Source: Candidatus Ruminimicrobiellum tauri (GTDB taxonomy: Bacteria; Elusimicrobiota; Endomicrobiia; Endomicrobiales; Endomicrobiaceae). Taken from it: a stretch of 64,000 nt of DNA. The stretch covers positions 2,012 to 66,011 of the forward strand of contig CADBBJ010000019.1 in the NCBI GenBank assembly GCA_902792865.1, read 5' to 3'. The position numbers were made by a program, and so were the translations under genes. A model generated the notes under the pieces. The model saw only the letters and a list, made by a program, of their open reading frames with translations, ran no database searches and was not told the origin of the DNA. Shown one piece after another: positions 4,847-40,152 of this stretch. Each line of letters starts with the position of its first letter. Position 1 is the stretch's first letter.

Positions 4847-5177
4847 TCGTTTGTCATTGCCTTTGCCGTTCGTCATTCCGTGAAAATACGGAGTATTTTC
4901 GTGGCAATCCATCCGTTTTTGCCGTTGCCGTTGCCGTCTTTCCGTGGCAACTTGTTGCCGTGGCAATCCATAGCAAAATAAATCCGTTTTTCCTCTTTGT
5001 CGTTAAAGAACCCGGGCTTTTTCTTTTGAAGTGCGGTTTAGAGACGGCTTATGAGTGAACAATTTTTTAAACAAAAAACTACAAGAGCAAGTTTTTTCCT
5101 TATAGTAGTGATAAATAGTCTAAAAAACAAATAATTTGCTGTTCTGTCTTTTGTTTTTATTGTTGTTTTTTTATTTT

Positions 5178-5213
5178 CCATAGACTGCCACACCCTAACG
5201 GGTTCGCAGTGAC
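5178..5213 (+). repeat. P element copy 1 (ccatagactgccacaccctaacgggttcgcagtgac)
   Basis: Identical 36-mer found five times in the window, all in the same orientation. Confidence 0.95.
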
Positions 5214-5424: not shown

Positions 5425-5460
5425 CCATAGACTGCCACACCCTAACGGGTTCGCAGTGAC
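5425..5460 (+). repeat. P element copy 2
   Basis: Identical 36-mer. Confidence 0.95.
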
Positions 5461-5570
5461 ATCACATAGGAATGTTTTTTATCCGTTTTGTCTTTGTTGT
5501 TGTCGTTGTCGTTTGCCTTTGCCGTTTACCACTATATATTTAAAATTGTTTTTTGTATAATAATAGTATT

Positions 5571-6239
5571 ATGGGCAAAGGGTGTTTTTCTATAATTTCT
5601 GCAGTTTCCATAAAGCACAAGATACTGTCTTGTGTGTTGGCTTTTTTTGTTCTGATAAGTTCAACGAACTTGTTGAATTTTGAAGAATATAAAAAAACCA
5701 TTATGAAATCCGTAGAAGTATCAACAGAGTTAGTAGTAAGTCAGCTTTTTAATATATCTGCACTTCCTGTAAGTGCAATTTCAAAAATGTTTTTAGGTAC
5801 CCCTAAAATTACCGTAAAAAAAGAATGTACCCCGATACAGTTATCAAAAGAAACAACAACCGTAGAACAACAGACCGACAAAGCAAACGAAACGGTAGCA
5901 CCCGCAAATGAAACCGCAAACAATAAAGGAACCGATGCAAAAGATAATAATGTTATAAAAGCAACAATAGGATATTCAATGGTAGTCGATATATCGGACA
6001 TGAGAAAAGTTATAAAAAGTGAAGGAATAAAAGATTTGTTTGTTGCAGACAAACTGTTGGAAATAAATTTTTCTTTATGTAAAAAAGTAATAAGTGTTAT
6101 GTTTATAATGATGTTATTATTAGCAATATTACTTGCAAGAAAGAATGTAGGCAACAATAATATTATAAATAACAATAAAATAAAATATAAAAGATTAACT
6201 CAGCTTATTTTATGTAAGTTGGGTTATTTTTGTGTATAA
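5571..6239 (+). CDS. hypothetical small membrane protein directly upstream of the giant gene
   Basis: ORF track 5553..6239; the first ATG is at 5571. It has an N-terminal hydrophobic segment (ILSCVLAFFVLISS) and a C-terminal one (VISVMFIMMLLLAILLA), with a T/N/A-rich low-complexity middle. I recognise no family. Confidence 0.45.
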   Translation: MGKGCFSIISAVSIKHKILSCVLAFFVLISSTNLLNFEEYKKTIMKSVEVSTELVVSQLFNISALPVSAISKMFLGTPKITVKKECTPIQLSKETTTVEQQTDKANETVAPANETANNKGTDAKDNNVIKATIGYSMVVDISDMRKVIKSEGIKDLFVADKLLEINFSLCKKVISVMFIMMLLLAILLARKNVGNNNIINNNKIKYKRLTQLILCKLGYFCV

Positions 6240-14315: not shown

Positions 14316-14830
14316 CAGATTAAAGTCTATCATATTCGCCATTCGCCATCTGCCGTTTGCCGTTGCCGTTGCCGTCTTTCCGTGGCAACTTGTTGCCGTG
14401 GCAATCCATCCGCTTTTTGTCATTGCGAAAAAACACGAAGTGTTTTTGTGGCAATCCAGCCGTTTTTGCCGTTGCCTTTTGCCTTTGCCGTTCGTCATTC
14501 CGTGAAAATACGGAGTATTTTCGTGGCAATCCATAAAAAAAATCCGTTTTCCACTTTTTTGTCATTGCGAGACCGAAGGTCGTGGCAATCCAGCCGTTTT
14601 TGTCGTTTAGTTGTTGTTTTTGTCGTTGCCTTTTGCCGTTGTCGTTTTTTATTTTCCATAGACTGCCACACCCTAACGGGTTCGCAGTGACGGCACATAG
14701 GATTGTTTTTCATCCGTTTTGTCTTTTGCCGTTGCCGTTCATTACCCTAATGTTCTTCCTAAAAGTCCAATATGTATTGAACCTCTACATCTTCTTGACA
14801 AAAAAAGTATAATGTTATACAATCATAAGG
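14316..14830 (+). repeat. mosaic intergenic repeat island B (4 hairpin units, 1 P element, GCCGTT spacers)
   Basis: Hairpin units lie at 14374-14408, 14419-14458, 14494-14533 and 14561-14592, and the P element at 14656-14691. Three hairpin units are identical in sequence to units of island A. Confidence 0.9.
14656..14691 (+). repeat. P element copy 3
   Basis: Identical 36-mer. Confidence 0.95.
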
Positions 14831-39171: not shown

Positions 39172-39329
39172 ATATTAAAATATATAAAAAATCAATTTTG
39201 CCGTTCGCCGTTGCCGTTTGTTGTTTCCTTTGCCGTCATTGAGAAAATACGGAGTATTTTTGTGGTAATCCGGTCGTTGCCTTTTCTGTTGTTGCCGTTT
39301 CGTCTTTGTAGTTGTTGTTTTTTATTTTT

Positions 39330-39365
39330 CCATAGACTGCCACACCCTAACGGGTTCGCAGTGAC
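39330..39365 (+). repeat. P element copy 4
   Basis: Identical 36-mer. Confidence 0.95.
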
Positions 39366-39562
39366 AGCACCCCTGATTGTTTTTCATCCGTTTTGTCTTT
39401 GTCTTTTGCCGTTGTCGTTCCGCCGTTCGTCGTCTTTCCGTGAAAAAATTTTGATTTTTTCGTGGCAATCCATAAAAAAATAAATCCGTTTTCCACTTTT
39501 TTGTCATTCCGTGACCGAAGGTCGTGGCAATCCAGTCGTTGCCTTTGTTGTTGTTTATTATT

Positions 39563-39598
39563 CCATAGACTGCCACACCCTAACGGGTTCGCAGTGAC
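39563..39598 (+). repeat. P element copy 5
   Basis: Identical 36-mer. Confidence 0.95.
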
Positions 39599-40152
39599 AG
39601 CATCCTGATTGTTTTTCATCCGTTTTGTCTTTGTTGTTGCCGTTGCCGTTATCGTTGCTGTCTTTCCGTGAAATTTCTGCGAATTTTCACGGAAAGACAT
39701 AAAAAATAAATCCGTTTTCCTATTTGTCGTTAGAGAACCCGGGCTTTTTCTTTTGAAGTGCGATTTAGAGACGGCTTATGAGTGAACAATTTTTTAAACA
39801 AAAAACTACAAGAACAAGCTTTTTCCGAAGGGCAATGTGTCTTTGTTTGAGCTTTTTTCGTTACAATATGTCGTTAGAAAAAAGCGAGTTGGCCTTTGGT
39901 TTAAAAAATTGGAACGAAAATAGAATGTACTTATAGTAGTGATAAATGGTCTAAAAAACAAATAATTCGCCGTTTTGTCTTTGCCGTTGCCGTTGTCTTT
40001 TGCCGTCTTTGCGAGGCAACTTGTTGCCGTGGCAATCCATAAAAAAATAAATCCGTTTTCCTGTTTGTCGTTAGAGAACCCGGGAAATTTTCTTTGAAGT
40101 GAGTTTTAGAGACAGTATATGAACGAAGTATTTTTTAGAGTACAAATATAAA

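What the first reader, a model, noticed from the sequence alone, without database searches (positions are those of the whole stretch)
39330..39598. Invariant 36-nt 'P' element present five times, always with the same flanks
ccatagactgccacaccctaacgggttcgcagtgac is identical at 5178, 5425, 14656, 39330 and 39563, although the surrounding island sequence varies. It can fold as a nested stem: ACTGC/GCAGT enclosing ACCC-taac-GGGT.

It is always preceded by a T-rich tract (..tt(a)ttatt(tt)) and followed by a conserved tail (..ca(t/c)..gattgtttttcatccgttttgtcttt). Absolute conservation of 36 nt in a fast-evolving AT-rich intergenic context suggests a protein-binding site or a structured RNA core. It matches no riboswitch or ncRNA consensus that I can recall.
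Basis: seen in the sequence. Interest (0 to 1): 0.6.

Follow-up and report, generated by a model that had tools for sequence, protein, structure and literature searches.

The report
Inverted hairpin repeat tied to Ssn nuclease
The invariant 36-base 'P' element is real, but it is the reverse-facing member of the same hairpin DNA repeat family that fills these intergenic islands, a family linked to small Ssn single-strand DNA nucleases, so it is a lineage-specific variant of a known kind of bacterial repeat.

Summary
The 36-mer occurs five times exactly in the window. The 2.1-Mb draft genome has 13 exact copies, 9 with one mismatch and 4 degenerate. No copy was found in 400 other Elusimicrobia genomes or in the metagenome and viral collections.

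P is not a separate element. Its reverse complement, tGTC-ACTGC-GA-[ACCC GTTA GGGT]-GTG-GCAGT-CTATGG-AAAATAAAAAA, aligns in register with the neighbouring hairpins, GTC-ATTGC-GA-[variable stem-loop]-GTG-GCAAT-CCAT-AAAAAAATAAA. One outer base pair is changed compensatorily (T-A to C-G). In every multi-hairpin island P faces the opposite way to the other hairpins.

The same outer frame occurs in many phyla with at least 96 different self-complementary inner stems.

The genome has no RAYT transposase. It has two small GIY-YIG genes 54% identical to the NTS-flanked gonococcal ssnA. A degenerate P sits 22 nt upstream of one of them.

Best reading: P is the binding and cleavage hairpin for an Ssn-type single-strand DNA nuclease on the minus strand, and it was recently amplified. 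Cleavage, mobility and transcription are untested. It is a new variant of a known kind, of modest interest.

The parts
39330..39365 (-). P copy 1 of island C. Read head-first on the - strand it is GTC-ACTGC-GA-ACCC-GTTA-GGGT-GTG-GCAGT-CTATGG.
   Evidence: Exact match. Fits the two-tier frame GTCAYTGCGA..GTGGCARTC. Two-tier fold.
39563..39598 (-). P copy 2 of island C.
   Evidence: Exact match; frame match.
14656..14691 (-). P copy of island B, the last module before tRNA-Asp. It is the only window copy with a CGTC rather than TGTC head.
5178..5213 (-). P copy 1 of island A. It is preceded by the end of the long ~250-nt module, and its tail is atypical.
5425..5460 (-). P copy 2 of island A, the last module before ORF 5553-6239.
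39311..39329 (-). T-rich tract before P copy 1. It is the complement of the A-rich linker (AAAAATAAAAAACAAC) that follows the hairpin on the head-first strand. It is homologous to the CCATAAAAAAATAAAT linker after forward hairpins and to the leader upstream of ssn genes.
   Evidence: Alignment; ssn flanks.
39366..39400 (-). Conserved tail of P copy 1. It is the proximal part of the head-to-head spacer between the P head and the next forward hairpin head. An Ssn-type enzyme would be predicted to cut the - strand here, a few nt 5' of GTC.
   Evidence: Tail subtypes of 21 or 22 nt. The cut position is inferred from Chenal 2025.
39544..39562 (-). T-rich tract before P copy 2.
39599..39632 (-). Conserved tail of P copy 2 (the 21-nt agcatcctgattg.. 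subtype).
39235..39271 (+). Forward hairpin GTCATTGAGA-aaatacggagtattttt-GTGGTAATCC. It is the tail-to-tail partner of P copy 1.
39432..39471 (+). Forward hairpin GTCTTTCCGT-gaaaaaattttgattttttc-GTGGCAATCC. It is the head-to-head neighbour of P copy 1.
39503..39533 (+). Forward hairpin GTCATTCCGT-gaccgaaggtc-GTGGCAATCC. It is the tail-to-tail partner of P copy 2.

Best explanation
P is one subfamily of the GTC-headed, two-tier hairpin DNA repeats that make up these intergenic islands, placed in the opposite orientation to all the others.

Read on the minus strand it has four features: an unpaired (T/C)GTC head; a 5-bp outer stem ACTGC/GCAGT, which is the ATTGC/GCAAT stem of its neighbours with one compensatory T-A to C-G change; the same GA/GTG internal loop; and its own 4-bp inner stem with a GTTA loop. 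Each forward hairpin followed by a P therefore forms a tail-to-tail heterodimer. The conserved tail after P is the head-to-head spacer to the next forward hairpin.

Shown: the homology in register, the inverted arrangement, the cosmopolitan frame with covarying inner stems, the presence of SsnA homologues and absence of RAYT, and a P-like copy directly upstream of one ssn gene.

Inferred: when the minus strand is single-stranded, P folds and is bound by the genome's Ssn-type GIY-YIG nuclease, which cuts a few nt 5' of the GTC head, inside the conserved tail. Also inferred: the near-identity of the copies reflects a recent lineage-specific burst, or homogenisation, of a unit that must stay recognisable to that enzyme.

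What the system does for the cell is not known. Candidates are control of incoming or recombining ssDNA, as in Neisseria, or merely spread of the repeat.

Confidence that P belongs to this hairpin family is about 0.9. Confidence in the Ssn-target mechanism is about 0.55.
For: The reverse complement of P fits the frame GTCA[CT]TGCGA-core-GTGGCA[AG]TC used by the other island hairpins. There are 89 frame matches in the genome, and P-type is the largest family with 24. One hybrid carries the P frame with a forward hairpin's core, gaccgaaggtc.

An alignment puts rc(P) units, forward hairpin units and the ssn-upstream copy in register through head, stems and A-rich linker.

In all multi-element islands P-type frames are inverted relative to forward hairpins, for example F> P< F> F> P<.

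The P-type frame recurs in 2 other Elusimicrobia with different inner stems. It also recurs in at least 119 loci from many phyla: 133 matches, 96 distinct cores, mean terminal complementary stem 2.7 bp against 0.43 in shuffles (0 of 500 shuffles reach it). The base before GTC is C or T in 117 of 133.

Four of those 123 loci carry an Ssn-like ORF, each within about 300 nt of the frame.

The genome has no Y1/RAYT transposase. It has two small GIY-YIG genes. A degenerate rc(P), GTCTCTGCGAACATGTTAGGGTGTGGCAGTCTATGA, ends 22 nt before the ATG of one of them; chance expectation is about 0.0015.

Ssn-like genes in relatives are bracketed by a head-first hairpin upstream and an inverted two-tier hairpin downstream.

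The G000 protein is 54% identical (E 2e-26, 95% coverage, gapless) to a N. gonorrhoeae gene surrounded by 7 exact NTS repeats, that is, ssnA.

Among 41 relatives, genomes with at least 9 frames have an Ssn gene in 9 of 10 cases, against 11 of 31 for the rest (Fisher p = 0.004).

Ssn binds its hairpin only as ssDNA, strand-specifically, and cuts upstream of it (Chenal 2025, PMC11893778).
Against: No enzymology exists for this organism. One ssn copy runs off a contig end, and the other carries a 61-nt tandem duplication that shifts the frame before the C-terminus. An active enzyme is therefore not demonstrated.

The ssn-adjacent P-like copy is degenerate: it has 4 mismatches and its inner stem is weakened.

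The published SRM search pattern matches neither rc(P) nor the two-tier forward hairpins.

Single-base variants of P give no strand asymmetry: 3 keep a wobble pair on the head-first strand and 2 on the other. The folding strand is therefore not shown.

Islands lie mostly just downstream of a co-oriented gene, 15 of 19, which also fits an RNA-level role.
Confidence: 0.6

Rival explanations
1. RNA-level role. The islands are co-transcribed as 3' untranslated tails of the upstream gene. P, like the other hairpins, acts as an RNA stem-loop that blocks 3'-5' exonucleases or directs processing, as proposed for E. coli REPs.
For: Islands start right after stop codons, and the upstream gene is co-oriented with P in 15 of 19 scorable cases. 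Di Nocera et al. 2013 note that REPs lie mostly downstream of ORFs and are plausibly transcribed. A hairpin folds in either orientation.
Against: The conserved parts include non-palindromic, orientation-specific flanks (GTC head, CTATGG tail), which an RNA stabiliser would not need. No U-tract follows the stem on either strand, and the terminator scan did not pick P. There is no Rfam match. The specific link is to ssn genes, and Ssn does not act on RNA. GNA-type triloops and GCGAAGC cores in the wider family are classic DNA mini-hairpins (own knowledge).
Confidence: 0.2
2. Inert recent repeat. P is a decaying remnant of a burst of a selfish mosaic repeat with no present protein partner. Its invariance reflects only youth or gene conversion, while the flanks look variable because they are slippage-prone (GCCGTT)n/(GTT)n tracts.
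For: P is species-specific: 0 of 400 other Elusimicrobia have it and there are no metagenome hits. The mismatches are star-like singletons. A sister hairpin family is equally homogeneous, 1.8%. The flanks are simple-sequence. Both ssn copies look incomplete in the draft.
Against: The tail has at least three distinct non-slippage subtypes that differ by several substitutions, yet P has no fixed difference between them. This argues for constraint or homogenisation focused on P. The outer frame is conserved across phyla while inner stems covary.
Confidence: 0.15
3. P encodes part of a small minus-strand peptide. The ATG lies in ..catccg.., read as ATGAAAAACAATCC..; ORFs are listed at 39322-39576 and 39347-39700 on the - strand.
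For: ATG-initiated minus-strand ORFs cover P.
Against: The 21-nt and 22-nt tail variants put P in different frames relative to that ATG, so no reading frame is conserved. The ORFs run through low-complexity (AACGGC)n.
Confidence: 0.02
4. P is a transcription terminator or a promoter element.
For: It is a stem-loop near gene ends with an adjacent T-rich tract.
Against: The T-tract precedes the stem on the + strand and an A-tract follows it on the - strand, which is the wrong order for an intrinsic terminator. The consensus scan found no terminator or promoter at P.
Confidence: 0.03

Closest known systems
NTS/SRM hairpin repeats and Ssn (SsnA) GIY-YIG single-strand DNA nucleases (Chenal et al. 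2025, Nat Commun 16:2388, PMC11893778)
   Same: It is an oriented hairpin with an unpaired HGTC head followed by A and a pyrimidine. It occurs as multi-copy intergenic clusters with copies in both orientations. The genome encodes SsnA homologues (54% identity to the NTS-flanked gonococcal gene). A copy lies directly upstream of an ssn gene, and ssn genes in relatives are bracketed by such hairpins.
   Different: The stem has two tiers (5 bp, a GA/GTG internal loop, then a 4-bp inner stem) instead of one 8-9-bp stem. The published SRM search pattern does not match it. The outer stem is ACTGC/GCAGT rather than ATTCCC/GGGAAT. In this genome the reverse-facing position is filled by one dedicated subfamily (P), not by the same repeat flipped as in Neisseria. 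Cleavage is untested.
CGTC-tagged REPs (Di Nocera, De Gregorio and Rocco 2013, BMC Genomics 14:522, PMC3733652)
   Same: It has a terminal CGTC/TGTC tag, a 4-nt loop and a short unpaired tail. It lies downstream of ORFs and forms head-to-head and tail-to-tail dimers, with conserved head-to-head spacers and variable tail-to-tail spacers. There is no RAYT.
   Different: The stem is interrupted and starts A-C rather than A-T. The tail is CTA rather than CCA. Tail-to-tail pairing with forward hairpins dominates, whereas TT dimers are described as rare. The host phylum (Elusimicrobiota) is not in that survey.
Neisseria intergenic mosaic elements (NIME) built on dRS3 repeats
   Same: These are mosaic islands of reusable modules punctuated by inverted hairpin repeats next to genes. 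They are also found around ssnA.
   Different: The hairpin sequence and module set differ. The inverted partners are heterologous (F versus P) rather than identical.
REP/BIME elements with RAYT (IS200/IS605-like Y1) transposases
   Same: These are short extragenic palindromes clustered in mosaics and thought to be handled as ssDNA hairpins by a dedicated enzyme whose gene they flank.
   Different: There is no GTAG tag and no Y1 transposase in the genome. The associated enzyme is a GIY-YIG nuclease.

Membership tests
CGTC-tagged REPs (Di Nocera 2013) | Unpaired CGTC (or TGTC/CCTC) motif at one end | tested here: met
   rc(P) is preceded by T or C: tGTCAC in most copies and cGTCAC at 14656.
CGTC-tagged REPs (Di Nocera 2013) | Continuous 8-9-bp stem with A and T in first and second positions | tested here: not met
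   P has a 5-bp outer stem (ACTGC/GCAGT), an internal loop and a 4-bp inner stem. The second position is C-G.
CGTC-tagged REPs (Di Nocera 2013) | Loop of 4-5 nt and a short unpaired tail fitting CCA | tested here: inconclusive
   The GTTA loop has 4 nt, which meets the criterion. The tail is CTA(TGG) rather than CCA. The forward partners do end in CCA.
CGTC-tagged REPs (Di Nocera 2013) | Extragenic, mostly downstream of ORFs, organised as HH/TT dimers, no dedicated RAYT | tested here: met
   No copy lies inside a credible gene. The upstream gene is co-oriented in 15 of 19 cases. The F> P< arrangement is seen in all islands. There is no PF01797 hit.
Ssn-related motifs (SRM/NTS) of Chenal 2025 | Match to the SRM search pattern HGTCWYN(0-2)YYVSBRHN(0-5)WNVSBRGN(0-2)RNCYNB | tested here: not met
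   The regex does not match rc(P) or the two-tier forward hairpins. It gives only 4 matches in the genome. The canonical NTS control matches.
Ssn-related motifs (SRM/NTS) of Chenal 2025 | Genome encodes an SsnA homologue (paper's criterion: tblastn E < 1e-10 to Neisseria SsnA) | tested here: met
   There are two single-domain GIY-YIG genes (PF01541, 59 bits). The G000 protein hits one locus in N. gonorrhoeae at 54% identity, E 2e-26, and that locus is flanked by 7 exact NTS. The search was run from G000 to Neisseria rather than the reverse.
Ssn-related motifs (SRM/NTS) of Chenal 2025 | Motif flanks the ssn gene | tested here: met
   A degenerate rc(P) ends 22 nt upstream of the C48 ssn start. 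The same frame lies within 300 nt of Ssn-like ORFs in Marinospirillum, Yeosuana, a Methylophilaceae MAG and an Anaerolineaceae MAG. Hairpins bracket ssn in relatives.
Ssn-related motifs (SRM/NTS) of Chenal 2025 | Bound as ssDNA and cut upstream by the cognate Ssn, strand-specifically | not testable with these tools
   This needs purified protein and oligonucleotides.
REP/BIME with RAYT | GTAG tag and a Y1 (IS200/IS605-like) transposase gene flanked by the repeats | tested here: not met
   There is no GTAG head, and PF01797 is absent from the genome at E <= 0.01.
Any curated RNA family (Rfam 15) | Covariance-model match at or near the gathering score | tested here: not met
   Only 4 tRNAs reach gathering score in the window. 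In island C the only match at E <= 1 is a chance miRNA hit at 23 bits against 88 required, and it is not on P.

The most novel reading that the evidence does not exclude
Forward hairpins and the inverted P would be the two non-identical ends of a non-autonomous unit copied or moved through ssDNA by the Ssn nuclease. That would make ssn cassettes a GIY-YIG-driven counterpart of the RAYT/REP system. The T-A to C-G switch in P's outer stem would give the two strands of each island separate specificities, possibly served by the two Ssn paralogues (the one on contig 48 has a P-like hairpin upstream; the one on contig 32 has a GTCATACCCG-type hairpin upstream).
Probability: 0.15. Interest if true: 0.75.

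Novelty: new variant of a known kind. Interest (0 to 1): 0.33.

Why it matters
This removes an apparent mystery element: P is the reverse-facing partner in an Ssn-type hairpin repeat system.

It adds three points to a system characterised so far mainly in Neisseria. First, a two-tier hairpin class (GTCAYTGCGA-variable stem-GTGGCARTC) that the published SRM search pattern misses is widespread across phyla and lies next to ssn homologues. Second, the outer stem covaries (ATTGC/GCAAT and ACTGC/GCAGT, with the same inner core found in both frames in a sister species). Third, in this rumen Elusimicrobium one monomorphic subfamily fills the inverted position in every island.

If Ssn specificities are to be catalogued as ssDNA tools, P with its flank is a ready-made candidate substrate for a new enzyme-site pair.

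Tried and rejected
- Rfam at gathering score on the window and at E <= 1 on island C found nothing on P.
- The promoter/terminator consensus scan found nothing at P.
- A minus-strand small ORF was rejected because 21-nt and 22-nt tail variants break the frame.
- RAYT/Y1 transposase is absent.
- An exact or loop-free P search found 0 hits in JGI metagenome contigs and in IMG/VR viral contigs, so no strain-level presence/absence comparison was possible.
- NCBIfam gave no family for the Ssn-like proteins. The PDB sequence search gave only a weak UPF0213 hit. No supplementary files of Chenal 2025 were held.
- Wobble-pair asymmetry, used to infer the folding strand, was uninformative: 3 against 2 for P variants, and 11 G.T against 7 A.C in cross-phylum cores.
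- A loose frame regex gave many singleton false positives, so only the multi-element islands were used.
- An empty-site comparison downstream of rsfS showed that relatives lack the island. It also showed that gene order differs there, so exact insertion boundaries and target duplications could not be defined.

Full report
**Observation**

The 36-mer CCATAGACTGCCACACCCTAACGGGTTCGCAGTGAC occurs exactly at 5178, 5425, 14656, 39330 and 39563, all on the + strand. No match appeared in 100 shuffles.

The window is part of contig 19 of a 2.12-Mb, 101-contig draft genome at about 30% G+C. Earlier notes of this scan call it an uncultured rumen Elusimicrobium. The genome holds 13 exact copies, 9 with one mismatch and 4 degenerate ones. 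Eleven of the 26 lie within 600 nt of a contig end, so the true number is probably higher.

At up to 3 mismatches P is absent from 40 relatives, 13 of them in the same genus. P, with its loop left free, is absent from the JGI metagenome contigs and the IMG/VR viral contigs.

As ssDNA the energy is -5.9 kcal/mol on the + strand and -7.0 on the - strand, z about -2.3.

The T-rich tract precedes every copy. The tail is present in most copies, in three or four subtypes of 21 or 22 nt, and is missing or different in a few, including the copy at 5178.

The copies are not segmental duplicates. Pairs share a median of 52 nt of ungapped identity including P.

**What P is**

The reverse complement of P reads tGTC-ACTGC-GA-ACCC-GTTA-GGGT-GTG-GCAGT-CTATGG-AAAATAAAAAA. 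The hairpins that fill the same islands read (c/t)GTC-ATTGC-GA-[variable stem-loop-stem]-GTG-GCAAT-CCAT-AAAAAAATAAAT.

A frame search, GTCA[CT]T[GC]CG.-core-G.GGCA[AG]T., finds 89 elements in the genome. The P type is the largest core family with 24 members. There is also a hybrid with P's outer frame around the core gaccgaaggtc of a forward hairpin.

A multiple alignment puts rc(P) units, forward units, the copy upstream of an ssn gene and a copy between nifS and nifU in register from head to A-rich linker. This gives three conclusions:
- P is a member of the neighbouring hairpin family, with one compensatory change in the outer stem (T-A to C-G).
- The 'T-rich tract' is the complement of the A-rich linker that follows every hairpin.
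- The 'tail' is the proximal part of the spacer between P's head and the head of the next forward hairpin.

In every island with several elements the P-type frame is inverted relative to the forward hairpins, for example F> P< F> F> P< in island A and F> F> F> P< in island B.

P's invariance is at the high end but is not unique. Per-site divergence to the modal sequence is 1.7% for P, 1.8% for the aaaaacacgaagtgttttt family and 3.3-5.3% for four others. P has no fixed difference between tail subtypes that differ from one another by several substitutions. This argues for constraint or homogenisation centred on the hairpin.

**The frame elsewhere**

GTCACTGCGA-N(6-24)-GTGGCAGTC occurs in two other Elusimicrobia with other inner stems. 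A same-genus species has GGGAC-AAA-GTCCC, and a species of another family has GGTCAC-TTTA-GTGACC three times.

They come from Proteobacteria, Bacteroidota, Chloroflexota, Spirochaetota, Nitrospirota, Caldisericota, Acidobacteriota, Gastranaerophilales and others. The 133 matches carry 96 distinct cores. Terminal complementarity of the cores averages 2.7 bp against 0.43 in shuffles (0 of 500 shuffles reach it). The base before GTC is C in 72 and T in 45.

In the same-genus genome G012 the core GGGACAAAGTCCC occurs in both the ATTGC and the ACTGC frame. G011 has an ATTGC/GCAGT intermediate, a T.G wobble on the head-first strand.

The outer frame is therefore a conserved, base-paired scaffold, and the inner stem varies freely as long as it pairs.

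**Protein partner**

The genome has no Y1/RAYT transposase. It has two small single-domain GIY-YIG genes (PF01541, 59 bits).

On contig 48 a degenerate rc(P), GTCTCTGCGAACATGTTAGGGTGTGGCAGTCTATGA, ends 22 nt before the start codon. It is co-oriented with the gene and preceded by further hairpins. The gene runs off the contig end. The chance of a P-like copy falling in such a position is about 0.0015.

On contig 32 the second copy has a GTCATACCCG..CGGGTATCTATG hairpin upstream and, downstream, the same hairpin block that lies upstream of the contig-48 copy. It also carries a 61-nt tandem duplication that shifts the frame near the C-terminus. This could be real or an assembly artefact.

Homologues occur in 29 of 41 relatives. 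They are typically bracketed by a head-first hairpin plus A-rich leader upstream and an inverted two-tier hairpin downstream.

The G000 protein hits a single locus in N. gonorrhoeae at 54% identity, E 2e-26, gapless over 90 residues. The records are labelled plasmids but are 2.17 Mb long. That locus is surrounded by seven exact NTS repeats, so it is the gonococcal ssnA. This satisfies the homologue criterion of Chenal et al. 2025.

Of the 123 cross-phylum loci fetched for the P-type frame, four contain an Ssn-like ORF, each within about 300 nt of the frame.

Among the 41 relatives, genomes with at least 9 two-tier frames have an ssn gene in 9 of 10 cases, against 11 of 31 for the others (p = 0.004).

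**Mechanism**

Chenal et al. showed that SsnA binds its hairpin only as ssDNA, only on the strand carrying the CGTC head, and cuts a few nt upstream. It does not act on dsDNA or RNA. ssnA is typically flanked by its repeats. In N. meningitidis the system restricts transforming ssDNA.

By analogy, which is inference, P is the minus-strand site of such an enzyme in each island and the forward hairpins are the plus-strand sites. The predicted cut falls inside the conserved tail, in the complement of about 39366-39375 for the first copy in the finding.

The arrangement matches the rule of Di Nocera et al. 2013 that head-to-head spacers are conserved and tail-to-tail spacers are variable. It also matches the alternating NTS orientation upstream of gonococcal ssnA. 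The difference is that here the reverse-facing slot is always filled by one dedicated subfamily.

Why that is so is unexplained. Using a different frame and core for the inverted partner would avoid long perfect palindromes, which Di Nocera et al. argue are unstable. This is speculation.

**Rivals**

An RNA-level 3'-tail function remains possible. Islands follow co-oriented genes in 15 of 19 cases. However, the conserved orientation-specific flanks, the lack of a U-tract after the stem, the lack of any Rfam match and the specific tie to ssn genes all favour the DNA reading.

An inert recent burst cannot be excluded, since neither ssn copy is demonstrably intact.

A coding reading and a terminator reading are rejected.

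**Classification and verdict**

P works like an Ssn-related motif and a CGTC-tagged REP, but it fails strict definitions of both. The published SRM pattern does not match it. Its stem is interrupted, starts A-C rather than A-T, and its tail is CTA rather than CCA.

I therefore call it a new variant of a known kind. It is lineage-specific in sequence and cosmopolitan in design.

The islands are lineage-specific as well. Twelve same-genus genomes have no island after rsfS.

Noticed in passing
window 39172-40150: In 12 same-genus genomes rsfS is followed within 20-300 nt by another gene, mostly a dnaE-like gene, with no hairpin island. Here a ~980-bp island and a convergent radical-SAM-like gene follow instead. 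The island therefore coincides with a break in gene order.
   Followed up: partly
window 4998-5140, 39724-39975 and from about 40060: A longer module (..tttgtcgttagagaacccgggc..gaagtgcgatttagagacggcttatgagtgaac..tagtgataaatagtctaaaaaacaaataatt..) recurs 6-8 times in the genome and often ends just before a P unit. Its nature (small RNA, MITE, remnant) was not examined.
   Followed up: no
genome contig C28:7315-7430 (outside the window): Between a nifS-like and a nifU-like gene lie three tandem GTCACT..GCAGT units, the last a 4-mismatch P. They are co-oriented with the genes, unlike island P copies.
   Followed up: partly
genome contig C32:397-520 (outside the window): One ssn paralogue carries a 61-nt tandem duplication that shifts the frame before the conserved C-terminal NPxWxDL. 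The other paralogue (C48:14054-end) is cut by the contig end. This may be an assembly artefact at a repeat.
   Followed up: partly
relatives G012 and G011: The same inner core (GGGACAAAGTCCC) occurs in both ATTGC and ACTGC outer frames in one sister species. Another species has an ATTGC/GCAGT intermediate with a T.G wobble. This is direct evidence of compensatory change in the outer stem.
   Followed up: partly
loci L037-L155: Many cross-phylum copies have the core GCGAAGC or GCGCAGC. From my own knowledge this is the very stable d(GCGAAGC) DNA mini-hairpin with a GNA triloop. The forward hairpins in this genome also use GAA/GGA triloops. This hints at folding as DNA.
   Followed up: no
window 39657-39701: A near-perfect long palindrome, gtctttccgtgaaatttctgcgaattttcacggaaagac, has the hairpin head on both arms. 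It drew a chance-level Rfam miRNA hit (23 bits against 88 needed).
   Followed up: no
PLSDB records NZ_CP119142.1 and NZ_CP119140.1: These records are labelled N. gonorrhoeae plasmids but are 2.17 Mb long, so they are evidently chromosomes. That is why a gonococcal ssnA locus could be found in the plasmid collection.
   Followed up: no
genome-wide: Eleven of 26 P or P-like copies lie within 600 nt of a contig end. The islands break the assembly, so copy numbers are lower bounds.
   Followed up: yes
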